From positions 2,976,001-3,040,000 of the forward strand of contig OY968796.1 of the NCBI GenBank assembly GCA_963695545.1: a DNA stretch of 64,000 bases, in the 5' to 3' direction. This DNA comes from Terriglobia bacterium. GTDB taxonomy: Bacteria > Acidobacteriota > Terriglobia > Acidiferrales > UBA7541. Within the stretch, counting starts at the first letter, position 1. Every line of letters starts with the position of its first letter. The translations under genes were made by a program, and so were the position numbers. The notes beneath the pieces were generated by a model, which had not been told where the DNA came from, ran no database searches, and saw only the letters and a list, made by a program, of their open reading frames with translations. Shown here in pieces: positions 11,866 through 27,707 of the stretch.

Positions 11866-12882
11866 ATGCCGACCGCAGCAGAACTCGCCAAACATTTGAA
11901 TTGCCGGTTGATCGGAGAATCCGTGCGCATTTCCGGCGTGGCCGCTCCCGAAACCGCCGGCGCCGAAGATTTGATTTATCTCGATGCGCCTCGTCAGGCC
12001 AGCCGCGGCGCGGCTTCGGCCGCACGCTGCGCAATCGTTGCGCCGGGCGTGGAGCTTGCGGGCAAAACGCTGATCGAATCGTCCACGCCGAAACTCGATT
12101 TTGCGCGGGCCGCCGCATTGATTCTGACCGCGCCGCGCATCGCGCAGGGAATTCACGCCCGCGCCGTGGTCGCGCCCACTGCGAAGCTCGGACTCGGCGT
12201 TCGCGTTGGGCCGTTTGCGGTCATCGAAGAGGACGCGGTCGTCGGTGCGAGCTCTGAGGTCGGCGCTCATTGCGTGATCGGCCGCGGCGCGCGCCTTGGC
12301 GATCGCTGCCGCTTGTATCCCCGTGTGACCCTCTATCCCGGCGCGCGAATCGGCGCGAACGTAATCATTCACGCCGGCGCGGTGATTGGTTCCGACGGCT
12401 TCGGCTACGTTCCGGACAGCGACGGAAAATATTGGAAATTCCCGCAGACCGGCGAAGTTGAAATCGGCGACGACGTGGAAATCGGCGCCAACACCACAAT
12501 CGACCGCGGCTCGCTTGGCCGCACGGAAGTCGCCCGAGGCACCAAGATCGACAACCTCGTACAGATCGGCCATAACGTGCGCATCGGCGAGCACTCCGTC
12601 GTCGCCGCCCAGGCGGGAATCGCCGGTTCCTCGGTCCTGGGCCGGCGCGTCGTGATCGGCGGCCAAGTGGGAATCGCGGACAACTGCACAATCGAAGATG
12701 GCGCCATCGTTGGTGCGCAAGGCGGCGTCCCGTCGAACAAGAGATTGCCGGGTGGCCGGGTCTATTGGGGCACTCCGGCTCGGCCCATCGAAGATATTCT
12801 GGAGCAATACGCCTGGCTCGGCCGCCTGCCTGGGCTTGCCGAGCGCCTGAAGGCGCTGGAAATGAAAAATTCTGCGGATTAG
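11866..12882 (+). CDS. lpxD: UDP-3-O-(3-hydroxyacyl)glucosamine N-acyltransferase
   Basis: Hexapeptide repeats, [31 protein letters not shown]. Confidence 0.95.
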
Positions 12883-13201: not shown

Positions 13202-15250
13202 ATGGCGGTAGGAGCGAGAATCGGCCTCGACCCGGTGCCATCCGGGGGACAACGCGGCGTTGAATCCGCGCCCGCGCTTGAACGCCTGCAGGAGGCGATT
13301 GAGCGGGGCGTCGACTATTTGCTCTCGATTCAGGCGCCGGAAGGTTACTGGCTCGGCGAACTCGAAGCCGATACCACGCTTGAATCCGACTACATCTTCT
13401 ATCTCAACGTTTTAGGCAAGGCCGATCCCCTGCGCGTCTCGAAGCTCGCGAATTACGTGCAGCAACGCCAGCTTGATGACGGCGGCTGGAACATTTACGA
13501 AGGCGGGCCCTCCGAATTAAACGCCACGATCAAAGCCTACGTGGCTTTGAAACTCGCTGGCCATTCCTCCGATGCGCCGCACATGCGCCAGGCGCGCGAG
13601 CGCGTCCATGCCCTGGGCGGATTCGAGCACGCGAATTCCTACACACGCTTTTATCTGGCTCTGGTCGGCGCCGTGGAATGGGATGTTGTCCCCGCTGTGC
13701 CGCCTGAGCTGATGCTCCTGCCGAATTGGTTCGCCGTGAATATCTACGAGATGTCGTCGTGGACGCGCGGCATCGTGATTCCTCTCGCGATACTTTACGC
13801 GCGCAAGCCGGAATGGAAACTCGATCGCCCGCTCGGCATCGAGGAACTCTTTCGCAATCCCGAGAATAAATCCGCGGCGCTCGCATGGAGCGATCGCCTC
13901 ATCAGTTGGCGCAATTTCTTCCTGGCGCTCGATCGTGCCTACAAACTTTACGAACGCTTGCCTTGGAAGCCGCTGCACAATCGCGCCGTGCGCCAGGCCA
14001 ACGCCTGGCTGCTCGAGCACCTCGAGCGCAGCGACGGTCTCGGCGCCATTTACCCCGCGATGATGAACGCGATTTTCGCGCTGGTCGCCATGGGCCACGC
14101 GCCCGACGATCCGCTCACCATGCGCGAAATTGGGCAGCTCGCGCGATTTGAAATCGAGGAAGAAGACACCATTCGCGTGCAGCCATGCACCTCGCCGGTT
14201 TGGGACGCGGCCATCGCATTGGTCGCGCTTGAAGAGGCTGGCTTGCCGCCCGACCACCCCGCGCTGGTGCGCGCCGCGGATTGGCTGCTGGGAAGACAAA
14301 TTGTCGGCACGGGCGATTGGATGGTGAAGAATCGCGACGCCGCGCCCGCCGGCTGGGCCTTCGAGTTCCGCAACGATTTCTATCCAGACGTAGACGACAC
14401 CGCATTCGTGCTCATGGCGCTTCAGAGCGTGGATTTCCCGGAGAAAGAGCGCATGGAAGCCGCAGTGCGCGGCGGCATCGCGTGGCTTGTCTCCATGCAG
14501 AATCGCGATGGCGGCTGGGGCGCGTTTGACCGCGACAACGATCGCGCGTTCTTGACCGAAATTCCCTTCGCCGACCACAACGCCATGATCGATCCTTCCA
14601 CTGCCGACGTCACCGCGCGCGTGGTCGAATGCCTGGGCCGCTACGGCTGGCCCGGCGCGCATCCGGTGTTACAGCGCGCGATCGCTTTCCTCCGTAAAGA
14701 TCAGACCGACGATGGTTCCTGGTACGGCCGCTGGGGCGTCAACTATGTCTATGGCACAAGCGGCGTGTTGCGCGCGCTTGAGACACTCACGCTCACCGCG
14801 CAGGAATATTGCCAGCGGGCGGTCTCGTGGCTGCGCTCCGTGCAAAATCCCGATGGCGGTTTCGGCGAAACGGCTGCGTCCTATGCGGACGCTTCGCTCA
14901 AGGGCAAAGGTCCGAGCACGCCTTCGCAAACCGCCTGGGGACTGATCGGCCTGCTGGCTGCCGGCAAGACGCACGATTCCGCGCCCGGCCCCGTGGCCGA
15001 TTCTTCCGTGCGGCGTGCCGTGAGTCATTTGGTCGAGACGCAAAATTCCGATGGCTCGTGGGATGAAAACGAGACCACCGGCACAGGTTTTCCGCGCGTC
15101 TTCTACTTGAAATATCATTTGTATCGCGATTACTTCCCGCTGTACGCGCTGGCCCGCTTTCGCAACATGGAGCAGCAGAGCGGAACTTTTTGCGCCTTGC
15201 ATGTCGAGCCGGAATCGCTCGGCCTGCAATCACGCGCCCGGAGCAATTGA
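13202..15250 (+). CDS. shc: squalene-hopene cyclase
   Basis: YPDVDDTA catalytic motif, QW repeats (QNRDGGW, QNPDGGF, QNSDGSW), GTGFPRVFYLKYHLY. Confidence 0.97.
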   Translation: MAVGARIGLDPVPSGGQRGVESAPALERLQEAIERGVDYLLSIQAPEGYWLGELEADTTLESDYIFYLNVLGKADPLRVSKLANYVQQRQLDDGGWNIYEGGPSELNATIKAYVALKLAGHSSDAPHMRQARERVHALGGFEHANSYTRFYLALVGAVEWDVVPAVPPELMLLPNWFAVNIYEMSSWTRGIVIPLAILYARKPEWKLDRPLGIEELFRNPENKSAALAWSDRLISWRNFFLALDRAYKLYERLPWKPLHNRAVRQANAWLLEHLERSDGLGAIYPAMMNAIFALVAMGHAPDDPLTMREIGQLARFEIEEEDTIRVQPCTSPVWDAAIALVALEEAGLPPDHPALVRAADWLLGRQIVGTGDWMVKNRDAAPAGWAFEFRNDFYPDVDDTAFVLMALQSVDFPEKERMEAAVRGGIAWLVSMQNRDGGWGAFDRDNDRAFLTEIPFADHNAMIDPSTADVTARVVECLGRYGWPGAHPVLQRAIAFLRKDQTDDGSWYGRWGVNYVYGTSGVLRALETLTLTAQEYCQRAVSWLRSVQNPDGGFGETAASYADASLKGKGPSTPSQTAWGLIGLLAAGKTHDSAPGPVADSSVRRAVSHLVETQNSDGSWDENETTGTGFPRVFYLKYHLYRDYFPLYALARFRNMEQQSGTFCALHVEPESLGLQSRARSN

Positions 15251-16407
15251 TGAGATATCCGCTGAAGATGACCACGAATCTGGCGAAGTACATCGCCAAG
15301 AATCGCTTCAAAGGCAAAGAGAAATTCCCGATGGTGCTGATGCTCGAGCCACTGCACGCCTGCAACTTGACGTGCACGGGCTGCGGCCGCATCCGCGAAT
15401 ATAAATCCACCATCAGTGAAATTCTCACCGTCGAGGAATGCCTGGCCGCGGTGGATAGCTCGGGCGCGCCGGTCGTCTCCATCTGCGGCGGCGAACCGAT
15501 GATCTATCCGGAAATCGGTCGCCTCACGCGCGAAATTCTGGATCGCGGCCGGCACATCATCCTCTGCACGAATGGAATGTTCATTCGCAAGCGCCTGCAT
15601 GAGTTCAAGCCGAGCTCCAGCTTTTTCTGGAACGTGCATTTGGACGGCATGGAGCGCACGCACGATCTGTGCGTCGAAAAAGACGGCGTTTTCCGCGATG
15701 CCGTTGAGGGCATCAAGGCAGCCAAGGCCGCCGGCTTCCTGGTTTGCTCGAACACCACAATTTACAAGGAAACCGATCTCGAAGAAGTCGCCGAGCTCTA
15801 TTCCTTCCTCGATGGCCTCGGCGTCGATGGCTACATGGTTTCGCCCGCGTACGGTTACAGCTCCGTGCAAACCAAAGACATCTTCATGTCGCGCGAGGAC
15901 GTGCGCGAAAAATTCCGCGCCGCGCTCGAATTGCTCGGCAAATACAACCTGATGGTTTCGCCGATCTATCTCGATTTCCTGCGCGGCGAACGCGAACTCG
16001 ATTGCACGGCCTGGGGCACGCCCACATTTAATCCCCGCGGCTGGAAAGGTCCGTGCTACCTGATCACCGATCAACACCACGCGTCGTATCAGGAACTGGT
16101 TGACAACACCGACTGGTCGAAATACGGACCCGGCAACGATCCGCGCTGCGCCGATTGCATGATGCATGTCGGCTTCGAGCCTTCCCCGATTCTGGGCGCG
16201 CACCGCCGCCTCGGCGACACCTGGAGAATGTTCAAGTGGCAGATGAGCGGGCGCATGGGCGGCCGACATTTTTCCGATAGCCGCGACAACGGCCATTCCA
16301 CAGGTTCAAATGGCGGCGCGGGCACCGGCGTTAGCGGAATGATTCCGCCGCCTCCGGCGCGGCCCGAGGAATTGGTTTCCGCCGACGGGAGTTTGCGAGT
16401 GCTATGA
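15250..16407 (+). CDS. hpnH: radical SAM adenosylhopane synthase
   Basis: LMLEPLHACNLTCTGCG, GGEP, CTAWGTP, DPRCADCMMHVGFEPS; ATG overlaps the shc stop. Confidence 0.93.
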   Translation: MRYPLKMTTNLAKYIAKNRFKGKEKFPMVLMLEPLHACNLTCTGCGRIREYKSTISEILTVEECLAAVDSSGAPVVSICGGEPMIYPEIGRLTREILDRGRHIILCTNGMFIRKRLHEFKPSSSFFWNVHLDGMERTHDLCVEKDGVFRDAVEGIKAAKAAGFLVCSNTTIYKETDLEEVAELYSFLDGLGVDGYMVSPAYGYSSVQTKDIFMSREDVREKFRAALELLGKYNLMVSPIYLDFLRGERELDCTAWGTPTFNPRGWKGPCYLITDQHHASYQELVDNTDWSKYGPGNDPRCADCMMHVGFEPSPILGAHRRLGDTWRMFKWQMSGRMGGRHFSDSRDNGHSTGSNGGAGTGVSGMIPPPPARPEELVSADGSLRVL

Positions 16408-17432
16408 CCACGCTGGTCACAGGCGCAACCGGTTTTCTCGGCAGCCACGTCGCGCTGCAACTCCTCGCGCGCGGCGAGAAAAACGTGCGCGTACTCGTGC
16501 GGCCATCGAGCGATCTTCGCGCGCTCGCCGGCCTCGCTGTCGAGCGCGTCACCGGCGACCTGCGCGATCCCGCTTCGCTCGATCGCGCGCTCGCGGGCGT
16601 CGAACGCGTCTATCACGTCGCCGCGGATTACCGATTGTGGGCGCGCGATCCGCGCGAAATTTACGAATCGAATGTCACCGGCACGCGCAATCTTCTCGCC
16701 GCAGCGCGTCGCGCGGGCGTCGCGCGCATCGTGTACACAAGCACCGTCGCCACAATCGCCGTTCCCAGCGCGGGGCCGCTTCCGAATGAGAATACGGAAG
16801 CGCGCCTGACGGACATGATCGGCGCGTACAAGCGCTCGAAGTTTCTCGCCGAGCAGGAAGTTCTGGCGGCTGCGCGCGAAGGCTTGCCCGTGGTGATCGT
16901 GAATCCGACCACGCCCGTCGGCCCCGGCGATTGGAAGCCCACGCCGACCGGCAAGATCATCGTCGATTTTCTGAATGGCCGAATGCCCGCGTACGTCGAT
17001 ACCGGCCTGAATTTCGTCGCTGTCGAAGACGCTGCCGCCGGACACCTGCTGGCGGCTGAGCGTGGCCGCCTCGGCGAGCGCTATCTGCTCGGCGGCGAGA
17101 ATCTTTCGTTGCGCGAATTGCTCGAAGGTTTGGCCCACGTGAGCGGCCGCCCGGCGCCGCGATTCCGCGTGCCGATCGCCGTTGCGTTCGCCGCGGCCTA
17201 CGCCGATACGCTCGTCGCACGCCTCACCGGTCGCGAGCCGCAAATTCCGATCGATGGCGTGCGCATCGCGCGCCACCGCATGTTCGTCGATTGCAGCAAG
17301 GCCGTGCGCGAGTTGGGCTTTGCGCCGGGCCCCGTCGCCGCGGCGCTGGACCGCGCGGTCCGCTGGTATGAAGGCAACGGTTACGTCGCGGAAATCGGCG
17401 GCGAGCGATTGCAACGCGCGCACGCAGCCTGA
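16404..17432 (+). CDS. hpnA: hopanoid-associated NAD-dependent epimerase/dehydratase
   Basis: GATGFLG, HVAADYRLW, YKRSK, PVGPGDWKPTPTG. Confidence 0.92.
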   Translation: MTTLVTGATGFLGSHVALQLLARGEKNVRVLVRPSSDLRALAGLAVERVTGDLRDPASLDRALAGVERVYHVAADYRLWARDPREIYESNVTGTRNLLAAARRAGVARIVYTSTVATIAVPSAGPLPNENTEARLTDMIGAYKRSKFLAEQEVLAAAREGLPVVIVNPTTPVGPGDWKPTPTGKIIVDFLNGRMPAYVDTGLNFVAVEDAAAGHLLAAERGRLGERYLLGGENLSLRELLEGLAHVSGRPAPRFRVPIAVAFAAAYADTLVARLTGREPQIPIDGVRIARHRMFVDCSKAVRELGFAPGPVAAALDRAVRWYEGNGYVAEIGGERLQRAHAA

Positions 17433-17504: not shown

Positions 17505-18263
17505 ATGAGGGCGGTTGTCACGTTTGCGGTGAATGCGGAGTTCGCTCCGTGGCGGCGATTGCGAGAATTTCGTCGCGTTCGATCCGCCGCGCCGGTGTGG
17601 TACGAATATTCCGCGGCAGAAGGGCTTAAGGTGCGAGTGGTGCTGACGGGAATGGGCGAAAGTCTGGCGCGTTTGGCGGCGAGAGAAGCTCTTGCTGACG
17701 GCGCGGACGTTTGCATTTCGTCCGGCCTGGCGGGAGGATTGCGCGCGGGGCAGCGCACTGGGGATATTCTGGTGGCCCAGGTCGTCGTGAAAGATCGCGA
17801 GCCGGTGGCCGTAGCGAGCGATCCCGATCTCGTCGCGCTGGCTGCGGAATGCGGCGCGCGGCAAGCCGCCCGCTTCGTCACCTGCAAGGAAATCGTGGCT
17901 CGCGCCGCCGATAAAAAGCGTTTGGGCGATCGAGCGGACGCGGTTGAAATGGAAAGTCTCGCGGTGCTGGCCGAAGCCGCCGTGCGCGGCGTGCCGGCAG
18001 TTGCCGTTCGCGCGATTGCGGACACCGTGGATTTCGATCTGCCGTTCGACTTCTCGAAAGCGCGCGGCGCCGATGGTCAGATTCGCACGAGCCGCGTGTT
18101 CGCCGCCGTCGCGTTGCGGCCGCAGCGCATTCCCGCGCTCATGCGCCTGGCCGGAGATTGCCGGCGCGCGTCGCGCGGTTTGGCGCAATTTCTGGATGCG
18201 TACACGGGCTCTCTCTTGGAACGCTACAAAGGCGCGAAATCAGAATTGTTGGCGACCACATGA
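17505..18263 (+). CDS. hpnG: nucleoside phosphorylase-family protein, HpnG-like
   Basis: LTGMG, SSGLAGGL, AVEMES, VRAIAD; GGAGG RBS; position in the hopanoid operon. Confidence 0.72.
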   Translation: MRAVVTFAVNAEFAPWRRLREFRRVRSAAPVWYEYSAAEGLKVRVVLTGMGESLARLAAREALADGADVCISSGLAGGLRAGQRTGDILVAQVVVKDREPVAVASDPDLVALAAECGARQAARFVTCKEIVARAADKKRLGDRADAVEMESLAVLAEAAVRGVPAVAVRAIADTVDFDLPFDFSKARGADGQIRTSRVFAAVALRPQRIPALMRLAGDCRRASRGLAQFLDAYTGSLLERYKGAKSELLATT

Positions 18264-19366
18264 CGGAAGCCGTAGCCACGCACAACCCGCAGAATGCGGC
18301 GCTTGATTTCGGCGGCGCCGGAATGCGCGCGGCCGTGTATCGCGGCGCGGGTCGCGTGGTGGTCGAACCTGTACCCGTGCCTGAAATTTCCGCGGGCGAA
18401 ATCCTGATTCACGTCGCGGCCTGCGGCATCTGTGGCACCGACGTCAAAAAAATTCAGCACGGTTTCGTCGCGCCGCCGCAGATTTTCGGGCACGAAGCGG
18501 CCGGCACGGTCGTCGCGGTGGGCGAAGGCGTGGAGCGCTGGAAGCTTGGCGATCGGGTAGTTGGTTTTCACCACGTTCCTTGTGGTAACTGTTTTTATTG
18601 CACGCGTCGTCTATTTTCCCAGTGTCCGGCGTATAAGAAAGTAGGATTGACGGCTGGATTCACGCCAAACGGCGGTGGCTTCGCGGAATATGTGCGTGCC
18701 ATGCCCTGGGTGGTCGAGCGAGGCCTGCTGCGCATTCCGGACGAGGTCACGTTTGAAGAGGCCACGTTCGTCGAGCCGGTCAACACGTGCTTGAAAGCCG
18801 TCGAAGGCGCGCGTGTGGCAGCCGGCGAAACAGTTTTGGTGATGGGCCAGGGCCCGATCGGACTTCTGCTGATGCTTCTTGCGAAATTAAAGGGAGCTAC
18901 CGTGCTCGCGAGCGATCCGATGCCCGAGCGGCGCGCGAAAAGCGTGCAGCTTGGCGCCGCGGCGGCATTCGATCCGAACGAAAAGCGACTCTCCGCGCAA
19001 GTTCGCGAGTGGACCGATGGCCGCGGCGCTGACGCCGTTCTCGTCGCCGTGCCGATTCCCGCGGCGCTCACCGAAGGATTGTCCGTCGCGCGGCCCGGCG
19101 GACGCGTGCTGCTGTTCGCGCAAAACGATCCTAAGATGCGCATCGAATTTCCGGCCGCGGAAGTCGGCGTCGAGGAGAAAGAAATTCTAGGCAGCTACAG
19201 CGCCGCGATCGACCGCCAAAGCGAGGCGGCCGAACTGGTCTTCTCGCGGCGTTTGCCGGTGCGCGAGTTGATATCTCATCGTTTTCCGCTTGCGCAGTTT
19301 ACCGAGGCGCTTGATCTCGCATCTAATCCTAGGGGAGACTCTTTGAAGGTCGTTGTACTGCCATGA
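18260..19366 (+). CDS. zinc-dependent medium-chain dehydrogenase (polyol dehydrogenase-like), paralog 1
   Basis: CGICGTD, GHE, CGNCFYC..C, GQGPIG; Asp at end of Rossmann beta2 (LASD). Confidence 0.92.
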   Translation: MTEAVATHNPQNAALDFGGAGMRAAVYRGAGRVVVEPVPVPEISAGEILIHVAACGICGTDVKKIQHGFVAPPQIFGHEAAGTVVAVGEGVERWKLGDRVVGFHHVPCGNCFYCTRRLFSQCPAYKKVGLTAGFTPNGGGFAEYVRAMPWVVERGLLRIPDEVTFEEATFVEPVNTCLKAVEGARVAAGETVLVMGQGPIGLLLMLLAKLKGATVLASDPMPERRAKSVQLGAAAAFDPNEKRLSAQVREWTDGRGADAVLVAVPIPAALTEGLSVARPGGRVLLFAQNDPKMRIEFPAAEVGVEEKEILGSYSAAIDRQSEAAELVFSRRLPVRELISHRFPLAQFTEALDLASNPRGDSLKVVVLP

Positions 19367-20430
19367 GCACAGCCACCTCTACTTCGATCGGACACATGAC
19401 CGCCGCTGTTCTGCGCGGCCGGGAAGACGTGCGCATCGAGCGCGTCGAAATTCCCGACATCGGCGCCGACGAAGCCCTGGTGCGCGTCAAGGTCGCGCTG
19501 ACCTGCGGCACCGATCTCAAAGTCTGGCGCCAGGGATTCCACGAGCGCATGATCACGCCGCCCGCGCTCTTCGGACACGAATGGGCCGGCGTCGTCGAGC
19601 GCGTTGGTCCCGACGTGCCCGATTGGGTGCGTCCCGGCTTGCGCGTCACCGCCGGGAATTCCGCGCCGTGCTACCGCTGCTTCTATTGTTTGCGCGGCCA
19701 GCAAAATTTGTGCGAAGACCTGGTGTTCAACAACGGCGCCTACGCCGAGTACGTTCGCGTGCCCGGCCGCATTGTGCGCGAAAATCTTTTGGAAATTCCC
19801 GAGAATGTTTCCTATCGCGATGCCGCTCTGGTCGAGCCGCTGGCCTGCGTCCTGCGCGGCATCGATGAAACCGGCGTGCGCTCCGGAGACACTGCGGCGC
19901 TGATCGGCTGCGGCCCGCTCGGACTTATGTTCGTCCGCTTGCTCTCCGCGCGTGGAGTCGGCGTTTTGGCCGTCGCCAAACACGCCAGCCAAGCTGAAGC
20001 GGCTCGCCGCATGGGCGCGACCGTCGCGTTCGTGTCCGGCCAAATGGAAGATCCCGTCGCCGAGGTTCGCCGCAAGACCGGCGCGCGTCGCGGCGCCGAC
20101 GCCGTAATCGAAGCCGTGGGCACGCCCGCCACCTGGGAATGGGCCGTGCAGATGGTGCGCCGCGGCGGCACCGTAAATCTTTTCGGCGGCTGCCCGCGCG
20201 GCAGCAAAATTTCGCTCGATCCGACGGCGCTGCACTACTCCGAGATCACAATCAAATCGTCGTTCCACCATACGCCGCAATTCGTGCGCGAGGCGCTTGA
20301 AACCATCGCTCGCGGCGAAATCAGCGCCGACGATTTTGTGAATCGGGAAACTCCGCTCGCCGATCTCCCGCAGTTGTTCGCGCGCATGAGGGATCGCAAG
20401 GGCGAGATGAAAGTCGCCATCATTCCCTGA
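19363..20430 (+). CDS. zinc-dependent medium-chain dehydrogenase, paralog 2
   Basis: TCGTD, GHE, CYRCFYC..C, GCGPLG; no acidic residue at end of beta2 (LAVAKH). Confidence 0.92.
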   Translation: MSTATSTSIGHMTAAVLRGREDVRIERVEIPDIGADEALVRVKVALTCGTDLKVWRQGFHERMITPPALFGHEWAGVVERVGPDVPDWVRPGLRVTAGNSAPCYRCFYCLRGQQNLCEDLVFNNGAYAEYVRVPGRIVRENLLEIPENVSYRDAALVEPLACVLRGIDETGVRSGDTAALIGCGPLGLMFVRLLSARGVGVLAVAKHASQAEAARRMGATVAFVSGQMEDPVAEVRRKTGARRGADAVIEAVGTPATWEWAVQMVRRGGTVNLFGGCPRGSKISLDPTALHYSEITIKSSFHHTPQFVREALETIARGEISADDFVNRETPLADLPQLFARMRDRKGEMKVAIIP

Positions 20431-20509: not shown

Positions 20510-22495
20510 ATGTCTTCCTCCGCCATCGAGAAACTCGAAATCGCGCGCCGCTTGCCGCCCGAGGGCTGCTCGGTCGAAGAGGCCGAGGCTTACACGCGCC
20601 ATCTCGCGCGCCATCACTACGAAAATTTCAGTGTGGTCTCGTGGCTCCTGCCGCGCCGCTTGCATCAGCATTTTTACAACGTGTACGCCTATTGCCGCTG
20701 GTCCGACGATCTGGCCGACGAGATTCCCGATCACGCGCAAGCTCTCGCCGCGCTCGAGGATTGGGAAATCATGTTGCGCCGCTGCTATGCGGGCGAAACC
20801 GCTCATCCCGTTTTCATCGCGCTTGCACCCACGATTCGCGCCTGCGAAATTCCCATCGAGCCCTTCGCCGATTTGCTTGCAGCGTTTCGCCAGGATCAAA
20901 CCGTCTCTCGCTACGCCACCTGGAACGACGTGCTCGGTTACTGCCGCTATTCCGCGAATCCGGTTGGCCGCCTCGTGCTCTATTTGTGCGGCTACCGCGA
21001 CGCCGAGCGCCAAGCACTTTCTGACGCCACTTGCACCGCGCTGCAACTCGCGAATTTCTGGCAGGACGTCGCGCGCGATCTCGAGAAACACCGAATCTAC
21101 ATTCCGCTCGATCTCCTCGCGCGCCATGGTCTTTCCGCCGAAGATATTGAAGCGCGCCGCTTCGACGATCGCTACGTGAAATTGATGCACGAGCTCATCG
21201 CGCGCACACGCCAACTCTTCGCCGAAGGCTTGCCACTCGCGAATCTTCTCGATCCAGATTTGCGCGTCGATATCGAACTCTTCAGCCGCGGAGGCATGGG
21301 GGTGCTCGATGCGATCGAAACCTCGGGTTACGACACCCTGCACCGCCGCCCGTCGATCGGCCGCGGCGCGAAGTTCGCGTTGCTCGCGCGCGCGCTCGCC
21401 GGCCGCGCGGTTTCTCCGGTGCGCCGCAGGTCCGCGCCAACTCCCGCTGCAGCAGCCGCCGCGCTTCCGACTACCGCATCCGAGCCCGGCCGCCCGGTAC
21501 TTGTTCCGACGCCCGCGCAGATGGGCGCCGCGTCCGCCGCGCCAACCGCCAAGAGCGCCGCGGATCTCCGCGAGATCGCGCGCTCCTACGCCGATTGCCG
21601 AGAAGTCGCCCGCGCAGCCTCCAGCAATTTCTACTATGCGTTCTATCTTCTCCCGCGCCACAAGCGCGACGCGCTCTGCGCGCTCTACGCCTTCATGCGC
21701 CTGGTGGACGACGTTTCCGACACGCCCGGCGATCTCGCGGCCAAGCGCGCAGGTCTCGCGCGCTGGCGAGCCGCGCTCGATGCCGCCGTTGCCGGCGATC
21801 CATCAGCGCATCCGGTTTTGCCCGCGCTCGCCGATACGCTCGAGCGCTTCCAAATCCCGCCGCGCTATTTTCACGATCTGATTTCCGGCGCGGAAATGGA
21901 TTTGACCGTCGGCGCCTACGCCACCTTCGACCGCCTGCGCGAATATTGTTATCGCGTGGCCGGCACGGTCGGCCTTACGTGTCTGCATGTTTTCGGCTTC
22001 ACCGATCCGCGTGCGCCCGATCGCGCCGAATCGCTGGGCATCGCGTTTCAATTGACCAACATCCTGCGCGACGTCCGCAGCGACCTCGAATCGGGGCGCG
22101 TCTACCTCCCGCAGGAAGATCTCGATCGATTCGGCGTCTCAACCGGCGAGCTCATCGGCGAAACCATCACGCCCGGTCTGCGCGCGTTGATGGAATTTGA
22201 AGTCGCGCGCGCCTGGTCGTTCTATCGCGAAGGCGAGCCGCTCGTGCGCCTGGTCGATCGCGATAGCCGCGCCGCGCTCTGGGCGCTGGTGCGCACGTAC
22301 AGCAGTTTGCTCGCGCGCATAGAAGCCCGCGGCTTTGACGTTTTTTCCACGCGCACGCGCCTCACCACGGCGGAAAAAGCCGGCATCCTGGTGCGCGCGC
22401 GCTTTGGCTGGTTCTCCCAACAAAATGTCCTCGAAGAGCGTGATCGTGATCGGCGGCGGCCTGGCGGGACTTTCCGCGGGCGTCGCGCTGGCTGA
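20510..22495 (+). CDS. hpnC-hpnD: fused hydroxysqualene synthase HpnC and presqualene diphosphate synthase HpnD
   Basis: N-domain HYENFSVVSWLLP..CRWSDDLADE..LQLANFWQD; Ala/Pro linker; C-domain SSNFYYAFYLLP..RLVDDVSD..FQLTNILRD; no intervening stop. Confidence 0.88.
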   Translation: MSSSAIEKLEIARRLPPEGCSVEEAEAYTRHLARHHYENFSVVSWLLPRRLHQHFYNVYAYCRWSDDLADEIPDHAQALAALEDWEIMLRRCYAGETAHPVFIALAPTIRACEIPIEPFADLLAAFRQDQTVSRYATWNDVLGYCRYSANPVGRLVLYLCGYRDAERQALSDATCTALQLANFWQDVARDLEKHRIYIPLDLLARHGLSAEDIEARRFDDRYVKLMHELIARTRQLFAEGLPLANLLDPDLRVDIELFSRGGMGVLDAIETSGYDTLHRRPSIGRGAKFALLARALAGRAVSPVRRRSAPTPAAAAAALPTTASEPGRPVLVPTPAQMGAASAAPTAKSAADLREIARSYADCREVARAASSNFYYAFYLLPRHKRDALCALYAFMRLVDDVSDTPGDLAAKRAGLARWRAALDAAVAGDPSAHPVLPALADTLERFQIPPRYFHDLISGAEMDLTVGAYATFDRLREYCYRVAGTVGLTCLHVFGFTDPRAPDRAESLGIAFQLTNILRDVRSDLESGRVYLPQEDLDRFGVSTGELIGETITPGLRALMEFEVARAWSFYREGEPLVRLVDRDSRAALWALVRTYSSLLARIEARGFDVFSTRTRLTTAEKAGILVRARFGWFSQQNVLEERDRDRRRPGGTFRGRRAG

Positions 22496-23876
22496 GGCCG
22501 GCTTTCGCGTCCGGTTGTACGAGAAGCGTCCGCACCTGGGCGGCCGCGCTGCCTCGTACGTTTTGCCCGGCGGCGAACACGTCGACAATTGCCAGCACGT
22601 CACGCTGGGTTGCTGCACGAATCTTGCGGATTTTTATCGCCGCGTCGGCGCCGCCGGAAAAATTCAATTCTTCGATCGTTTGGTCTTCGCCGATTCCACC
22701 GGGCGCCGCGGCACCATGGAAGCCTCTTCGCTCGCGCCGCCCATGCACATGGCCGGATCGTTCGCCGCGTTTCCGTTGCTCGATTGGCGCGATAAGCGCG
22801 CCATTGCGAACGCGCTCGTAGCCATCGCGCGCTCTGGCGGCCGTCCCGACGACGCAAACGGAAACGGAAACGGAAACGGCGGCGTCTCCATGCTCGATTG
22901 GCTGCGTCGCCGCGGCCAAACCGAAGCCGCGATCGCGCGCTTCTGGGGTGTGGTCCTGGTCAGCGCGCTCGATGAAGAGCTCGCGCGCACCGACGCGCAC
23001 TACGGCATCGATGTTTTCTGGAAAGCGTTTCTCGCAAATCGCTCCGGCTATCGCGTCGGCATTCCGTCGGTTCCGCTCGGCGATCTCTACGGCGGTTGCC
23101 TCGCCGCGATCGAGCGGCGGGGCGGGGAAGCGCGGCTTCGAGCCGCGGTACGCGGAATCGCGATCGAAGATGGCCGCGCCGCCGGCGTCGAATTTGAAAA
23201 CGGCGCGCGCGAAGTTGCCGATCACTACGTCGTCGCCGTGCCGCACGAAGCCTTGCCGTCGCTCTTGCCCGCGCCTGTCGTCGAGCGCCACGCCGAGTTT
23301 CGCAATCTCAGCCGTTTGCGCTCATCCCCAATCACCGGCGTGCACCTGTGGCTCGATCGCGAAGTGATGTCCGAACCGTTTTTGACCGTGGTCGATCGCA
23401 CCACGCAATGGATTTTCAACAAGACGCTGCTTTCCGAATCCGCCGCCAACGGATCGAACGGCGCAAACGGAGCAAGCGGCGCGCGCCAATATCTGCAGCT
23501 CGTGATCAGCGCGTCCTACGATTTAATCCCACGCTCGCGCCAGGAAATCCTCGCGCTCGCGTGGCGCGAACTCTGCGAAGTCGTGCCCGCGGCGCGTGAA
23601 GCGCGCGTGGTGAAAGGCGCGGTGATCAAAGAAACCGCGGCGACGTTTTCGCCCGAGCCCGGCTGCGATCGCTGGCGCCCCGCGCAATCGAGTCCCATCG
23701 CGAATCTCTATCTCGCCGGCGATTGGACCGCCACCGGCTGGCCGGCCACGATGGAAGGCGCCGTGCGCAGCGGCTATCTCGCCGCCGAGGCCATTCTCGC
23801 CGCCGCAGGAGCCCCTGCGCGCCTTCTGCGCGCCGAATTGCCCACCGAGGGCCTGTCGCGCTGGTGGGCGGGATAG
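22425..23876 (+). CDS. hpnE: hydroxysqualene dehydroxylase (FAD-dependent)
   Basis: IGGGLAGL, LGGRAAS, VDNCQHV, LAGDWTATGWPATMEGAVRSG. Confidence 0.93.
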   Translation: MSSKSVIVIGGGLAGLSAGVALAEAGFRVRLYEKRPHLGGRAASYVLPGGEHVDNCQHVTLGCCTNLADFYRRVGAAGKIQFFDRLVFADSTGRRGTMEASSLAPPMHMAGSFAAFPLLDWRDKRAIANALVAIARSGGRPDDANGNGNGNGGVSMLDWLRRRGQTEAAIARFWGVVLVSALDEELARTDAHYGIDVFWKAFLANRSGYRVGIPSVPLGDLYGGCLAAIERRGGEARLRAAVRGIAIEDGRAAGVEFENGAREVADHYVVAVPHEALPSLLPAPVVERHAEFRNLSRLRSSPITGVHLWLDREVMSEPFLTVVDRTTQWIFNKTLLSESAANGSNGANGASGARQYLQLVISASYDLIPRSRQEILALAWRELCEVVPAAREARVVKGAVIKETAATFSPEPGCDRWRPAQSSPIANLYLAGDWTATGWPATMEGAVRSGYLAAEAILAAAGAPARLLRAELPTEGLSRWWAG

Positions 23877-23993: not shown

Positions 23994-24455
23994 TTGGACC
24001 GGAAGTATAAGCAGCACGGCTACATGTCTGACGACAAGCCGAAAAAACAGGAAAAAAAACCGCCGCACGATGGCCGCCCGCGTCAGGAGCAGTTTGGACC
24101 GCGCACACCGCGGATGGTCGGCACGGTTTCGCGCATGCGCTGCTCGAATTGCGGCGCTGTGCTCCAGGCCAATGTCGATCCGAACGCGAAGTGCCCGCGC
24201 TGCGCCTTCGATCTTCACTGCTGCAAACAGTGCCGCTTTTTCGATAGCGCCGCGCGCTTCGAGTGCATGCAGCCCGTGGTCGAGCAAATTGCGCGCAAAG
24301 ACGTGAAGAACGATTGCGCGCTTTACGAATTCCGCACCACGATTGAAAAGGACACCGCTCCGGCCGCGGCACAAGCCTCGCCCTCGGCGCCGACTTCCAG
24401 CCCTTCGCGCCCGCACGATGCGCGCCGCGCCTTCGACGACCTCTTCAAGAAGTAG
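23994..24455 (+). CDS. Cys-rich hypothetical protein (putative double zinc finger)
   Basis: TTG start with GGAGG RBS; CSNC, CPRC, CCKQC plus two further Cys; C-terminal ARRAFDDLFKK. Confidence 0.78.
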   Translation: MDRKYKQHGYMSDDKPKKQEKKPPHDGRPRQEQFGPRTPRMVGTVSRMRCSNCGAVLQANVDPNAKCPRCAFDLHCCKQCRFFDSAARFECMQPVVEQIARKDVKNDCALYEFRTTIEKDTAPAAAQASPSAPTSSPSRPHDARRAFDDLFKK

Positions 24456-24495
24456 CCGCAGCTTCGCTGTTCAGCACCAAATTGTTCTCAGAGGA

Positions 24496-25434
24496 TCAAC
24501 GCGGAGGATTTGGGAATAGCGTCGGCTCTCGCGCCGGCTCGCTCGCGATCGCATCAAGCGAAGGATAATGATGCCGCAACGTCTCCGGCACTTTCACTTT
24601 CGCGCCGGTCAATAGCTCGATCAATTCCAGCGCGTTCACCACGCCTTTTCCGAGAAAATGATTATTGGTGATCACGTAGGTGTCGCCGGAGTGCTCCGCC
24701 ACTTTTTCGATGCGCGCGGCCCACGGCGCAAGCTCTTCCTGGCTGTAAAGGTAGTTGTATCGCTCCGCTGGCGGCGTTGCCGGGTCGTCGCTGAACCAGG
24801 TGTCGTAGCGCCGTCCGTGCAGACGAACATATCCGATGTTTCCCGTCGCGCGCCCAGAAGGCCGAATCGAGCGCCCAATCACCGGCTGATCGATATTGCA
24901 GAATCCCACGCCGCGCTCGGCCAGCATCGCGTAAAACTCTTTCTCGTTCCACGAAGCGTGCCGCACTTCCACCACCAGCGGAAAATCCGCAAATCGCGTC
25001 AGTATATTTTCCAGCTGCGCGTCATTCTCCGCCGTGCGATGAAACGAATATGGAAATTGCAGCAGCACCGCGCCCAATTTTCCCGCGCGTCGCAGCGGCT
25101 CAAATCCCTCGCGCACCGCGCGCTCGTCTTCGGCGGTCGCTCCGGATTCGTGCGTGAATTTCTGCCAGAGCTTTGCCGTGAATAAAAATCGCGGATTTGC
25201 CGCTACGCGCTCCACCCACTGCGCCCCCAGTTCCGGCCGCAACGGTTGGTAAAACGAAGTATTGATCTCGATGGTGTCGAAATATTCCGCCAGGTAAGTA
25301 GCTTCGTGAAATCCGCGCGGCCTCCGCGCCGGATAGACCACTCCGTTCCAATCGTCGTACGACCAGCCCGCTGGACCGACGCGGATCGTGCGCAGAGGCC
25401 GTTCGATGCGAGATTTCGGTTCCGATCGCGGCAT
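24496..25434 (-). CDS. DUF72 (YecE-like) family protein; start approximate
   Basis: GPAGWSYDDW, DTIEINTSFY, LLQFPYSF, VEVRHASW, YVRLHGR, YLYS. Confidence 0.92.
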   Translation of the reverse strand: MPRSEPKSRIERPLRTIRVGPAGWSYDDWNGVVYPARRPRGFHEATYLAEYFDTIEINTSFYQPLRPELGAQWVERVAANPRFLFTAKLWQKFTHESGATAEDERAVREGFEPLRRAGKLGAVLLQFPYSFHRTAENDAQLENILTRFADFPLVVEVRHASWNEKEFYAMLAERGVGFCNIDQPVIGRSIRPSGRATGNIGYVRLHGRRYDTWFSDDPATPPAERYNYLYSQEELAPWAARIEKVAEHSGDTYVITNNHFLGKGVVNALELIELLTGAKVKVPETLRHHYPSLDAIASEPAREPTLFPNPPR

Positions 25435-25517
25435 TCGCGCGCACCCAGGAATCCGCATGTTATCATCCTGCCGCTGGGTGGCCCCTATCGAACGGGTCGT
25501 CGAAAGAGGCATATCTC

Positions 25518-27707
25518 ATGTTGCGCTCCAAACTGTCTCGCGCGCGAATCGCGCTCTGTCTTGGCACTGGCGCGATAATCGCGGTTGCCGCTCTCGCACA
25601 ATCGAGCAATCAATCCGGTCCGCCGCCCACGCCGCGCCACGACGTCACCGAAGCCTTCTTCGGCCAAACCGTCACCGATCCCTATCGCTGGCTCGAGAAC
25701 TGGCATGACGCCGACGTCGCGGCGTGGTTCAAGGCTCAGAACGACTACACGCGCGCCGCGCTGGCCGCCATTCCCGGCCGCGAAAAGTTCCTCGCGCGGG
25801 TTAAGGAGCTCGATACCGAGAACACGGGCGTGCGCAGCGCGCAGGTTTGGGGTGGCAAGATTTTTTACCTCAAGACCGCAGCCGGCGCCAATAATGCCAA
25901 GCTGTTTGTCGAGGATTCCGCCGGCTCGCCCGAGCGCTTGCTCATCGATCCCGAGCAGCTCACGAAAGACGGCGTGCATTACTCGATCGACTACTTTGCG
26001 CCTTCGCTCGACGGTGCGCTCGTGGCTTACGGAATTTCTCCCGGTGGATCCGAAGAGAGCGTGATTCACGTCCTCGAAACCGCCACCGGCAAGCAGTTGG
26101 CAGACGCGATTGACCGCTGCCGTTTTGGCGGAGTTCAATGGCTGCCGGGCGACAAATCGTTCCTCTACAACCGGCTCCAGAAGCTCACTCCAGACATGCC
26201 CAGCACTGCTTTTGAACAGCGCAGTCGTGTGTATCTCCACGAACTGGGCCAAGATCCCGATAGCGATCGCTTCGTGTTCGGCTACGGATATTCCGACGAC
26301 CTAAAGATCGCTGATGTCGACCTGAGTTTCGGTTTGTTCTCCCCCGCGTCGCCGTACATTTTCGGAATCGTGGCGCACGGTACGCAAAGAGAACAGACCG
26401 CCCACTACGTTCCGCTCGACGAACTGAACTCGCCGGCCATCAAGTGGAAAAAGCTCTTCGACGTCGAAGACGACGTGGTGAACTTCGACGTCCATCATGA
26501 CGACGTCTACCTGATCTCGCACAAGCGAAGCCCGCGCTATGACGTTGTCCGTGCCAGCCTCAAAAGTCCGGATCTCGAGCACGCGCCCGTCGTTGTGCCC
26601 GCAAGCGAATCCGTGATCCTGGAGGCCGACGTCGCCACGGACGGAATCTACATTCGCGATCTCGACGGCGGAATCGGGCGCATCCGGCGCCTCTCGTACG
26701 ACGGGCGAATCGAATCGATACCCGTGGCCGAAGGGCAATCCGTCACGGATATTTCGGTCACGCCAAGCGAGGCTGGTGCGCTGATCCACGTCGCCTCGTG
26801 GACCACCTCGCCGAAATGGCTGGCGTACGACGCACAACGCAAGACCTCGAGCGATACCGGAATTCAACCGCCGTCACCCATCGATACGTCGGCCTTTGAA
26901 TCCGTCGAAGTAAAGGCCAAGAGCGCCGACGGAACAATGGTTCCGCTCTCCATTATCCGCGCCAAGAACATCGTGTTGGATGGCACTCATCCCACTCATT
27001 TGGTCGGATACGGCGCCTATGGTATCTCCATGGATCCGGCGTTCGCGCCGTATCGGGTGGCTTGGCTCGAGCGCGGAGGCGTGATCGCCGTCGCCCACGT
27101 TCGCGGCGGCGGAGAATACGGGCAGGAGTGGTATCACGCGGGCTACAAGCTGACAAAGCAGCACACCATCGATGACTTCATCGCCTGCGCCCAATATCTG
27201 ATTAAAAACAAATACACCAGTCCCGCACACCTTTCCGGTGAAGGAACCAGCGCCGGCGGAATTCTGATCGGAGGCGCCATCACGCAGCGCCCCGATCTGT
27301 TTGCCGGAGCGCTGATCCGCGTTGGTCTCTCTGACGCGCTCCGCGCGGAGTTCACGCCGAATGGCCCGCCGAACATCGCCGAGTTCGGCACCGTCACCGA
27401 TCCCGATGGCTTCAAAGGTCTCTACGCGATGGACGCGTATCAGCACGTCAAAGACGGCGTGGCGTACCCGGGCGTTCTGTTGACCGCCGGAATCAACGAT
27501 CCGCGCGTCGATCCCTCGCAGCCCGCGAAGATGACGGCGCGTTTGCAGGCCGCGACTTCGAGCCATAGACCGATTCTGCTTCGCGTGAACTACGACGCGG
27601 GCCACGGTTTTGGTTCTACGCGAGCGCAGAACGACTTGGAGTATGCCGACGAAATGTCGTTCTTGCTTTGGCAGGACGGCGATCCGGAATTTCAGCCGGC
27701 ACACTAA
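25518..27707 (+). CDS. secreted prolyl oligopeptidase (S9A)
   Basis: Signal peptide, DPYRWLE, RGGGEYG, triad GTSAGG / NDPRV / AGHG. Confidence 0.94.
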   Translation: MLRSKLSRARIALCLGTGAIIAVAALAQSSNQSGPPPTPRHDVTEAFFGQTVTDPYRWLENWHDADVAAWFKAQNDYTRAALAAIPGREKFLARVKELDTENTGVRSAQVWGGKIFYLKTAAGANNAKLFVEDSAGSPERLLIDPEQLTKDGVHYSIDYFAPSLDGALVAYGISPGGSEESVIHVLETATGKQLADAIDRCRFGGVQWLPGDKSFLYNRLQKLTPDMPSTAFEQRSRVYLHELGQDPDSDRFVFGYGYSDDLKIADVDLSFGLFSPASPYIFGIVAHGTQREQTAHYVPLDELNSPAIKWKKLFDVEDDVVNFDVHHDDVYLISHKRSPRYDVVRASLKSPDLEHAPVVVPASESVILEADVATDGIYIRDLDGGIGRIRRLSYDGRIESIPVAEGQSVTDISVTPSEAGALIHVASWTTSPKWLAYDAQRKTSSDTGIQPPSPIDTSAFESVEVKAKSADGTMVPLSIIRAKNIVLDGTHPTHLVGYGAYGISMDPAFAPYRVAWLERGGVIAVAHVRGGGEYGQEWYHAGYKLTKQHTIDDFIACAQYLIKNKYTSPAHLSGEGTSAGGILIGGAITQRPDLFAGALIRVGLSDALRAEFTPNGPPNIAEFGTVTDPDGFKGLYAMDAYQHVKDGVAYPGVLLTAGINDPRVDPSQPAKMTARLQAATSSHRPILLRVNYDAGHGFGSTRAQNDLEYADEMSFLLWQDGDPEFQPAH

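What the first reader, a model, noticed from the sequence alone, without database searches (positions are those of the whole stretch)
18260..20430. Tandem Zn-dehydrogenase pair with opposite predicted cofactor preference inside the hopanoid operon: candidate missing side-chain reductase/epimerase
Seen: two polyol-dehydrogenase-like MDRs coupled by ATGA overlaps directly behind hpnH-hpnA-hpnG and ahead of hpnCD-hpnE. Paralog 1 has Asp at the end of Rossmann beta2 (TVLASD, the NAD signature); paralog 2 has Ala-Lys-His there (VLAVAKH, NADP-like). Known: HpnH makes adenosylhopane and HpnG removes adenine to give ribosylhopane. To my knowledge the enzyme that converts this to bacteriohopanetetrol, and the origin of BHT stereoisomers, are unassigned, and these genes are not among the canonical hpn set. 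An NAD+ oxidase plus NADPH reductase pair is a classic way to invert a hydroxyl through a keto intermediate. Inference: an undescribed hopanoid side-chain redox or epimerisation module. No hpnB/I/J/K/O/P/R is in this cluster.
Basis: partly seen in the sequence, partly recalled or inferred. Interest (0 to 1): 0.8.

Follow-up and report, generated by a model that had tools for sequence, protein, structure and literature searches.

The report
Dehydrogenase pair, possible isoprenoid-precursor bypass
Two zinc dehydrogenase genes inside the hopanoid lipid operon of a soil Acidobacterium, listed since 2017 as 'function unknown', look less like hopanoid side-chain enzymes than like a two-step route to the isoprenoid precursor DXP, whose usual synthase is missing in many of these bacteria; this is inferred from genome comparison and is untested.

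Summary
In detail: two Zn-MDR genes with ATGA overlaps between hpnG and hpnCD, carrying an NAD-type Asp (80/80 homologues) versus an NADP-type basic motif (79/79). They are ug1/ug2 of Sinninghe Damsté 2017, function unassigned. This scan reported the pair before on other DNA (seven notes seen).

The side-chain epimerase reading is only partly supported. The pair tracks shc (121 of 124 carriers, 201 class genomes). But two genomes lost shc, hpnH, hpnA and hpnG (one tested also lost hpnI/J) and keep the pair intact beside ispH and hpnCDE. Ten shc-positive genomes lack it.

New here: 119 of the 201 genomes, including this one, have dxr but no dxs. Of 131 shc-positive genomes, 130 have dxs or MDR2. 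In three other genomes the pair sits directly before tlyA, the usual dxs position. MDR1 belongs to the clade of LsrF-linked dehydrogenases. MDR2 groups with a gene in a kinase-aldolase polyol operon.

Best reading (about 0.4): NADPH reduction plus NAD+ oxidation isomerises 5-deoxyribulose-1-phosphate to DXP, bypassing DXS. Against it: 28 dxs-less genomes lack the pair, 33 carriers have dxs, and the carbon flux is unexplained.

The parts
13202..15250 (+). shc, squalene-hopene cyclase
   Evidence: TIGR01507 780 bits, cut-off 431
15250..16407 (+). hpnH, adenosylhopane synthase (radical SAM)
   Evidence: TIGR03470 421 bits, cut-off 225; TGATG junction with shc
16404..17432 (+). hpnA, SDR/epimerase-like, function not established
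   Evidence: TIGR03466 468 bits, cut-off 368
17505..18263 (+). hpnG-like nucleosidase/phosphorylase
   Evidence: TIGR03468 123 bits, below cut-off 187; PF01048; directly before MDR1 in 80 of 80 loci
18260..19366 (+). MDR1 = ug1: Zn-MDR, NAD-type (Asp219). Homologues align from Met22 (18323). Clade includes LsrF-linked dehydrogenases and a cyanobacterial subfamily
19363..20430 (+). MDR2 = ug2: Zn-MDR, NADP-type (Ala-Lys-His 205-207)
   Evidence: directly after MDR1 in 79 of 80 loci
20510..22495 (+). fused hpnC-hpnD
   Evidence: TIGR03464 550 bits and TIGR03465 453 bits on the two halves
22425..23876 (+). hpnE, hydroxysqualene dehydroxylase
   Evidence: TIGR03467 452 bits, cut-off 283

Best explanation
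[quoted passage not shown] Proposed steps: MtnP and MtnA turn 5'-deoxyadenosine into 5-deoxy-D-ribulose-1-phosphate (or an aldolase makes it from DHAP and acetaldehyde). MDR2 (NADPH) reduces its C2 ketone to 5-deoxy-D-arabitol-1-phosphate. MDR1 (NAD+) oxidises C4, and read from the methyl end the product is DXP with the right C3 configuration (my own Fischer-projection check). The reverse order, through 3-hydroxy-2,4-pentanedione-5-phosphate (the LsrF substrate), gives the same product. Opposite cofactors would pull the reaction forward. The genes would sit in the hopanoid operon because hopanoids are a large isoprenoid sink, as ispH does. Shown: anatomy, co-retention, deletions, missing dxs, family relationships, presence of mtnP/mtnA. 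Inferred: substrates, regiochemistry, direction and flux. No enzyme activity is shown.
For: (1) dxr is found in 201 of 201 class genomes, dxs in 82 of 201, HMG-CoA reductase in 9 of 201, so 119 genomes need another DXP source. In this genome dxs is not found and ispA is followed about 70 bases later by tlyA, so the usual dxs slot (order recalled) is empty and not an assembly gap. (2) 130 of 131 shc-positive genomes have dxs or MDR2; 9 of the 10 shc-positive genomes without MDR2 have dxs; 3 of the 3 shc-negative genomes that keep MDR2 lack dxs. (3) After loss of the hopanoid block, what remains in G165 and G173 is ispH-MDR1-MDR2-hpnC-hpnD-hpnE. dN/dS against the intact congener G181 is 0.11-0.13 for the MDRs, against 0.15-0.19 for ispH and hpnCDE. 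(4) A diverged pair lies directly before tlyA in G023 (xseAB-ispA-pair-tlyA-nadK; unpublished genome), G091 (dxs-transporter-pair-tlyA) and G147. (5) MDR1 falls in one clade (SH-aLRT/UFboot 96/98) with single-copy dehydrogenases that lie next to an LsrF-type thiolase in 15 of 20 loci examined. 14 of the 15 LsrF-like proteins scanned pass the NF006081 cut-off. These singles are sister (98/99) to the MDR1 partners of G085, G147 and G091 and share HH(V/I)PC, (L/V)(F/L)FA and xSY motifs. (6) MDR2 forms a clade (98.5/99) with a Rhodococcus plasmid gene in an MFS / FGGY kinase / DeoR / class II aldolase operon. The aldolase's best hit is ribulose-1-phosphate aldolase, 207 bits, below the cut-off of 300. 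(7) This genome has mtnA and mtnP over cut-off, no LsrF, no MtnC/MtnD motif hits, and its RubisCO-like protein is of the apiose OiaX type. (8) Precedent for the net reaction: the R. rubrum RubisCO-like protein isomerises methylthioribulose-1-P to methylthioxylulose-5-P en route to DXP (PMC4958253, passages).
Against: (1) 28 of the 119 dxs-less genomes have no MDR2 orthologue: best profile scores are at most 216 bits, against 278-286 for diverged true members, and 14 genomes of family f65 gave no match at 1e-55. At least one other bypass must exist, and it may serve all of them. Only 2 of the 28 (G172, G188) were seen to have an LsrF-like cassette; 3 more tested had none and 1 had an ADH-synthase-like aldolase. 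(2) 33 genomes have both dxs and the pair; G091 and G147 have dxs too. (3) Co-occurrence with shc is far tighter than with dxs loss (odds ratio 270 versus 4.8). Both tables are inflated by kinship, and the 9 of 10 sits in families that mostly have dxs anyway. (4) No mtnA or mtnP lay near any MDR among the 308 loci held. (5) 3 of 5 LsrF-cassette genomes tested have dxs. (6) 5'-deoxyadenosine waste alone seems too small a flux for hopanoid-scale isoprenoid synthesis (inference). (7) G165 and G173 differ by dS of only about 0.05, so selection after the loss is weakly sampled; MDR2 dN/dS between them is 0.29. (8) f68 genomes G156, G164 and G180 keep MDR2 without MDR1.
Confidence: 0.4

Rival explanations
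1. Lineage-specific hopanoid side-chain redox. Ribosylhopane is itself a 5-substituted 5-deoxyribose, so the same chemistry could act on a hopanyl-ribulose(-1-phosphate) intermediate. MDR2 would set the C-34 hydroxyl (ribitol or arabitol configuration, BHT-34S or 34R) and MDR1 would oxidise C-32, or the two would epimerise a hydroxyl through a ketone.
For: hpnG directly before MDR1 in 80 of 80 loci. 121 of 124 MDR2 carriers have shc and 67 of 70 shc-negative genomes lack it. The pair tracks shc better than hpnC: 27 hpnC-positive, shc-negative genomes lack it. Among 138 phylum genomes outside the class, 6 of 11 pair carriers are among the 11 shc carriers, 5 of them unlinked to shc (one of the six is the unpublished G023). 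The BHT-forming enzyme is unassigned (PMC12583986).
Against: Intact pair in G165 and G173 without shc, hpnH, hpnA and hpnG, and in G165 without hpnI and hpnJ. Pair with no shc domain found in G058, G060, G137, G147 and G091. 10 shc-positive class genomes and 6 of 24 shc-positive phylum genomes lack it. Closest relatives sit in soluble sugar-phosphate operons. I found no intact-BHP or BHT-isomer data for Acidobacteria.
Confidence: 0.25
2. Same chemistry, different purpose: disposal or recycling of 5'-deoxyadenosine/methylthioadenosine sugar waste (from HpnJ-type and other radical SAM enzymes) into a deoxy-polyol or into central metabolism, with no real contribution to isoprenoid supply.
For: MDR1 clade linked to LsrF. 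mtnP and mtnA present with no recognised downstream step. Carriers with dxs exist (33 of 124). Very high conservation of the MDR1 subfamily in cyanobacteria, 86-100% among the top 120 hits to P0125; cyanobacteria have dxs (control S. elongatus; generality recalled).
Against: Does not explain the position between ispH and hpnCDE, or directly before tlyA in the ispA/dxs operon. No linkage to mtnA/mtnP in 308 loci.
Confidence: 0.17
3. The pair serves squalene or C30-carotenoid metabolism (for example farnesol/farnesal or presqualene-alcohol redox), travelling with hpnCDE.
For: MDR2 precedes hpnC in 76 of 80 loci (cluster A of PMC5462960). It stays with hpnCDE when clusters split or shc is lost.
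Against: 35 of 77 MDR2-negative genomes have hpnC. Diverged pairs are not near hpnCDE. Family neighbours point to sugar phosphates, not prenyl alcohols.
Confidence: 0.1
4. Ordinary sugar-alcohol catabolic dehydrogenases that hitchhike in the operon.
For: Databases label them 'L-iditol 2-dehydrogenase'. The Rhodococcus relative is in a polyol-uptake operon.
Against: No transporter or kinase beside the pair in any hpn locus examined. The sorbitol-dehydrogenase FRY motif is replaced by SYS and FHH. Both genes are kept even when over 100 kb apart or on different contigs in genus g7.
Confidence: 0.08

Closest known systems
ug1 and ug2 of acidobacterial hopanoid clusters C (hpnA-hpnG-ug1) and A (ug2-hpnC-hpnD-hpnE), Sinninghe Damsté et al. 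2017, PMC5462960
   Same: Same genes: Zn alcohol dehydrogenases of about 370 and 350 aa at the same positions; fused hpnCD noted there for SD2 genomes.
   Different: That paper gives 'Not established' for function. In the passages and supplement table I read it does not discuss cofactors or link them to missing dxs, which it attributes to aceE.
MTA-isoprenoid shunt of Rhodospirillum rubrum (MtnP, MtnA, RubisCO-like isomerase, cupin sulfurylase; PMC4958253)
   Same: Same proposed net conversion, a ribulose-1-phosphate analogue to a xylulose-5-phosphate analogue ending in DXP, fed by MtnP and MtnA, which this genome has.
   Different: There one RubisCO-like protein does a tautomerisation. Here two Zn-MDRs would do it by reduction and oxidation. 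This genome's RubisCO-like protein is OiaX-like.
Polyol(-phosphate) dehydrogenases of the MDR superfamily: whitefly NADP(H) ketose reductase 1e3j, sorbitol dehydrogenase 1pl6, galactitol-1-phosphate 5-dehydrogenase 4a2c, S. meliloti 4ej6/4ejm
   Same: Fold, Zn ligands, Glu-type fourth ligand region, Asp versus basic cofactor determinants.
   Different: Only 23-32% identity by structure alignment; substrate-loop motifs differ; no NCBIfam family reaches its cut-off.
LsrF (3-hydroxy-5-phosphonooxypentane-2,4-dione thiolase, NF006081) with its adjacent Zn dehydrogenase
   Same: MDR1 is in the same clade as the dehydrogenase of this cassette.
   Different: No LsrF in this genome; the partner here is a second MDR. 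The cassette's own function is untested.

Membership tests
Zn-dependent MDR superfamily | GroES-like catalytic domain plus Rossmann domain, catalytic Zn ligands Cys and His(-Glu) | tested here: met
   CGTD at 58/48 and GHE at 77/71; folds; Pfam PF08240 and PF00107 on homologues
Zn-dependent MDR superfamily | Four-cysteine structural Zn loop | tested here: met
   CxxCxxCx7C at 108 (MDR1) and 103 (MDR2)
Sorbitol / L-iditol 2-dehydrogenase | Arg-Tyr polyol-binding motif (FRY) near the C-terminus; role of the motif recalled | tested here: not met
   1e3j SVFRY aligns to GSYSA in MDR1 and SSFHH in MDR2
Named NCBIfam MDR families (Tdh, IolM, GatD, IdnD and others) | Score over curated cut-off | tested here: not met
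   best 174 versus 458 bits (MDR1) and 150 versus 450 bits (MDR2)
ug1/ug2 (Sinninghe Damsté 2017) | Zn-ADH of about 370 aa after hpnA-hpnG; Zn-ADH of about 350 aa before hpnC | tested here: met
   matched by size and position, not by the paper's accession numbers
General ribosylhopane reductase (BHT-forming) | Present in all producers of extended hopanoids | tested here: not met
   10 of 131 shc-positive class genomes and 6 of 24 shc+hpnH phylum genomes lack it
General ribosylhopane reductase (BHT-forming) | NADPH-dependent reduction of ribosylhopane in vitro (cofactor recalled from Bodlenner 2015, seen only as a citation) | not testable with these tools
   needs an enzyme assay
DXS bypass / deoxynucleoside-to-isoprenoid shunt | Host has dxr and ispH but no dxs and no mevalonate route | tested here: met
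   own genome: dxr, ispH, no dxs, no HMG-CoA reductase
DXS bypass / deoxynucleoside-to-isoprenoid shunt | Upstream MtnP and MtnA present | tested here: met
   own genome only, both over cut-off; not linked to the pair; not profiled across genomes
DXS bypass / deoxynucleoside-to-isoprenoid shunt | Present in every dxs-less MEP genome | tested here: not met
   91 of 119 have MDR2, 28 do not
DXS bypass / deoxynucleoside-to-isoprenoid shunt | Forms DXP in vitro or rescues a dxs deletion | not testable with these tools
   needs experiment
MTA-isoprenoid shunt of R. rubrum | Deep-Ykr RubisCO-like isomerase plus cupin sulfurylase | tested here: inconclusive
   the one RubisCO-like protein found by motif search scores best as OiaX (444 bits, under cut-off 700) beside an OiaK-like kinase; no whole-genome family scan was run

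The most novel reading that the evidence does not exclude
ug1/ug2 are an undescribed DXS-independent entry into the MEP pathway: an NADPH/NAD+ dehydrogenase couple that isomerises 5-deoxy-D-ribulose-1-phosphate to DXP. It would let most Terriglobia-like Acidobacteria (91 of 119 dxs-less genomes sampled) build hopanoids and other isoprenoids without DXP synthase. The same MDR1 lineage would send the sugar to acetyl-CoA plus DHAP when paired with LsrF, and to isoprenoids when paired with MDR2.
Probability: 0.3. Interest if true: 0.85.

Novelty: new variant of a known kind. Interest (0 to 1): 0.6.

Why it matters
Two open questions meet at this locus. The enzyme that makes bacteriohopanetetrol from ribosylhopane is unassigned (PMC12583986). 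And 119 of 201 sampled genomes of this abundant soil class run the MEP pathway without DXP synthase, a gap noted for six species in 2017 and attributed to aceE, which in E. coli needs a point mutation to do this. The data here argue that the pair is not the general answer to the first question, and make it a concrete candidate for the second. One cheap experiment, rescue of an E. coli dxs deletion plus an in vitro assay, separates the readings. If the side-chain rival is right instead, Acidobacteria would make a distinct BHT stereoisomer, which matters for its use as a biomarker.

Tried and rejected
1. 'Undescribed module': rejected, the genes are ug1/ug2.
2. General BHT-forming reductase: rejected by absence in shc-positive genomes and retention in shc-negative ones.
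3. 'The pair is THE DXS bypass of the class': rejected as a necessary function, since 28 dxs-less genomes lack it and none of them has HMG-CoA reductase.
4. Tie to squalene synthesis alone: weakened, hpnC is in 35 of 77 MDR2-negative genomes.
5. Cyanobacterial context: 0 of 11 loci had an hpn gene or MDR2 within the flank held (up to 8 kb), and the neighbours scanned were unrelated. Cyanobacterial genomes could not be profiled, so whether they carry MDR2 elsewhere is open.
6. Plasmids: no MDR1 match at 1e-40; MDR2 gave 33 records, all under 43% identity. Viral contigs: none.
7. mtnA/mtnP linkage: none in 308 loci apart from this genome's own two.
8. Fold and PDB searches gave only generic MDRs at 23-32% identity and no substrate.
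9. Literature: no held paper links these genes to DXP or assigns them. The library lacks most subscription journals. Liu 2014 was not held. The supplement tables of PMC12324291 on domains near shc were not visible (one file searched, no hits) and may list these domains.
10. No complex prediction was run: two MDRs would likely pass by likeness to MDR homo-oligomers.
11. The 101-row tree is a quick tree with SH-aLRT only. The claims rest on the 37-row bootstrap tree, from which I dropped 8 of 16 LsrF-linked singles to save time and which holds no biochemically characterised enzyme.
Full report
Observation. The window comes from an Acidobacterium: the closest genome loci are titled Candidatus Acidiferrales, up to 92% identical in MDR1. 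The cluster is shc-hpnH-hpnA-hpnG-like-MDR1-MDR2-hpnCD(fused)-hpnE. ATGA overlaps join hpnG to MDR1 and MDR1 to MDR2; 79 bases separate MDR2 from hpnCD. Both proteins have complete Zn sites and confident MDR folds. The cofactor contrast is conserved: Asp in 80 of 80 MDR1 homologues, Gly/Ala followed by Lys/Arg in 79 of 79 MDR2 homologues. Some distant MDR2 genes have Asp instead. The two are 32% identical and fall in two separate, well-supported clades. In the 80 best genome loci hpnG precedes MDR1 in 80, MDR2 follows in 79, hpnC follows in 76 and shc is in reach in 76.

Prior description. Sinninghe Damsté et al. 2017 (PMC5462960; abstract, outline, passages, part 1 of 4 of the supplement and searched passages of it) list ug1, a Zn alcohol dehydrogenase of about 370 aa after hpnA-hpnG, and ug2, about 350 aa before hpnC, both 'Not established'. 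They note ug2 in all SD1 and SD3 genomes but not in the BHT producer Chloracidobacterium, and that six species lack dxs. A 2025 survey (PMC12583986, passages) states that the ribosylhopane-to-BHT enzyme is not established; a 2026 review (PMC13459092, passages) calls the step predicted non-enzymatic. Earlier notes of this scan found the same pair in other genomes and reached 'known, unproven'. A word search of the notes for a dxs bypass in Acidobacteria returned nothing.

Co-occurrence with hopanoid genes. In 201 genomes of the window's class, at least 95% complete except the own genome (unnamed; I take the class to be Terriglobia from record titles), MDR1 is found in 121 and MDR2 in 124, and every MDR1 carrier has MDR2. 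shc is found in 131; both in 121, shc only in 10, MDR2 only in 3, neither in 67. In genus g7 the two genes are far apart and both kept. hpnC occurs in 35 of the 77 MDR2-negative genomes. Among 138 phylum genomes outside the class, 11 have shc and 11 a tandem pair, with 6 in common, 5 of them unlinked to shc (one is the unpublished G023). Kin are not independent, so the P values overstate. The link to hopanoid producers is real.

Natural deletions. G181 has ispH-shc-hpnH-hpnA-hpnG-MDR1-MDR2-hpnC-hpnD-hpnE. Its congeners G165 and G173 have ispH-MDR1-MDR2-hpnC-hpnD-hpnE on continuous sequence, and no shc domain, hpnH or hpnA elsewhere (96-97% complete, 10 and 4 contigs). G165 also lacks hpnJ and hpnI, which G181 has. 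The MDRs are intact, with dN/dS 0.11-0.13 against G181 and 0.09 and 0.29 between the two deletion genomes, which are close (dS about 0.05). G156 keeps MDR2-hpnCDE with only remnants of the block. G060 has ispH-hpnA-MDR1-MDR2 at one contig end and the rest of MDR2-hpnCDE at the start of another, with no shc or hpnH found. G058, G137, G147 and G091 carry pairs with no shc domain found. Conversely G188, G308, G324, G194 and G204 have shc-hpnH-hpnA-hpnG clusters without the pair. The pair therefore has work to do without hopanoids, and hopanoid clusters exist without it.

A missing enzyme upstream. dxr is found in 201 of 201 class genomes, dxs in 82, HMG-CoA reductase in 9. The own genome has dxr and ispH but no dxs, and ispA runs straight into tlyA. 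MDR2 is in 91 of 119 dxs-less and 33 of 82 dxs-bearing genomes. Of 131 shc-positive genomes 130 have dxs or MDR2; the exception, G188, has an LsrF-like gene with an MDR1-clade dehydrogenase. In G023 (unpublished), G091 and G147 a diverged pair lies directly before tlyA, in G023 between ispA and tlyA, where dxs usually sits (order recalled). Against this: 28 dxs-less genomes have no MDR2 orthologue, so another bypass exists; G091 and G147 keep dxs; and the pattern is largely family-level.

Family chemistry. Single-copy relatives of MDR1 lie next to an LsrF-type thiolase in 15 of 20 loci; 14 of 15 such proteins scanned pass the NF006081 cut-off. In a 37-row maximum-likelihood tree they group with window MDR1, a cyanobacterial subfamily and the partners of the diverged pairs (96/98), and are sister to the partners in G085, G147 and G091 (98/99). 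LsrF's named substrate is 3-hydroxy-5-phosphonooxypentane-2,4-dione, which is what oxidation of C4 of 5-deoxyribulose-1-phosphate would give (inference; LsrF products recalled). After I had written this reading down, unchecked notes of this scan turned out to report the LsrF-dehydrogenase cassette next to mtnA in archaea and Omnitrophota; I did not see that linkage in my own loci. MDR2 groups (98.5/99) with a Rhodococcus plasmid gene flanked by a transporter, an FGGY kinase and a class II aldolase most like ribulose-1-phosphate aldolase, under cut-off. This hints at redox at C2 of a ketose-1-phosphate. MtnA and Ald2 are known to take 5-deoxyribose-1-P and 5-deoxyribulose-1-P (10.1101/2023.08.10.552779, passages). 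The own genome has mtnP and mtnA, no LsrF and no MtnC or MtnD motif (a weak test).

Mechanism. Reduction at C2 by MDR2 with NADPH and oxidation at C4 by MDR1 with NAD+ turns 5-deoxy-D-ribulose-1-phosphate into 1-deoxy-D-xylulose-5-phosphate with the C3 centre unchanged. I give it 0.4. Because ribosylhopane is a 5-substituted 5-deoxyribose, the same chemistry could act on the side chain in these lineages (0.25). Waste disposal without isoprenoid supply (0.17), squalene-linked redox (0.1) and ordinary polyol catabolism (0.08) follow. The main unsolved point is flux: by-product deoxyadenosine seems too little for hopanoid synthesis unless an aldolase or another source feeds the intermediate.

Verdict. 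The feature is real and already catalogued, and this scan has met it several times. It is not the general BHT-forming enzyme. What is added here is the deletion evidence, the widespread loss of dxs in the class, and the family links, which together make a DXS-bypass role a concrete, cheap-to-test hypothesis. Other papers seen: PMC12324291 (passages; one supplement file searched without hits), PMC7306690 (passages), PMC3424233 (search listing only). Interest 0.6; new variant of a known kind.

Noticed in passing
class-wide; own genome G000:C1:3070919-3072553: 119 of 201 class genomes have dxr but no dxs and almost none has HMG-CoA reductase; 28 of them also lack the MDR pair, so an unidentified DXP source exists in this class. 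In genus g124, 4 of 11 genomes have dxs and 7 do not, several being single-contig.
   Followed up: partly
L279-L292, L294 (G128, G113, G053, G089, G188, G006, G045, G069, G022, G125, G135, G001, G044, G041, G068): Two-gene cassette of an LsrF-type thiolase and an MDR1-clade Zn dehydrogenase in 15 of 20 loci; G026 has it 1.2 kb apart with an HD-domain gene between; G068 has a class II aldolase-like gene beside it.
   Followed up: partly
L283:3821-4852 (G188), L268:2510-3526 (G172), L300:1096-2055 (G164): Longer, diverged LsrF-like proteins with an internal insertion (under the NCBIfam cut-off) coupled to an MDR1-clade gene in family f68, the family that lost operonic MDR1.
   Followed up: partly
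P0125 and L132-L141, L152: A cyanobacterial MDR1 subfamily with the TAGFxPxGGG insertion, 86-100% identical among the top 120 hits, stands alone in 11 of 11 loci; no function known to me.
   Followed up: partly
P0138: An MDR1-clade dehydrogenase fused behind an N-terminal nucleotidyltransferase domain (PF00483/PF12804), reminiscent of cytidylyltransferase-reductase pairs for polyol phosphates (recalled).
   Followed up: no
L226 and L227 (G165, G173); L225 (G156); L112 and L230 (G060): Independent losses of the hopanoid block that keep hpnCDE: squalene synthesis retained without a cyclase. 27 further class genomes have hpnC without shc; the fate of their squalene is unknown.
   Followed up: partly
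L298:7538-11425 (own genome about 2.18 Mb): hpnJ and hpnI with small membrane proteins between them, unlinked to the main cluster; hpnK not found in the genome.
   Followed up: partly
L001-L080: hpnH is missing from the fetched locus in 38 of 80 cases (some are contig ends; many read shc-hpnA directly); in the phylum sample all 24 shc genomes had hpnH somewhere.
   Followed up: no
L308:5846-8459 (own genome about 0.98 Mb): OiaX-like RubisCO-like protein and OiaK-like kinase, near a split transketolase and an FGGY kinase at about 0.96 Mb: probably apiose-type sugar catabolism.
   Followed up: no
window 10481-12882: Lipid A lauroyltransferase-like gene, a 108-aa cupin and lpxD directly upstream of shc on the same strand.
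   Followed up: no
window 23994-25512 (-) and 25518-27707 (+): Cys-rich 153-aa protein without a family hit, a DUF72 protein and a prolyl oligopeptidase-like gene downstream of hpnE.
   Followed up: no
L236:6381-8298 (G194): A pair-less hopanoid cluster that instead carries a GT2 glycosyltransferase and a YdjC-type deacetylase (hpnI/hpnK-like); possible mutual exclusion with the pair was not tested beyond 5 genomes.
   Followed up: partly
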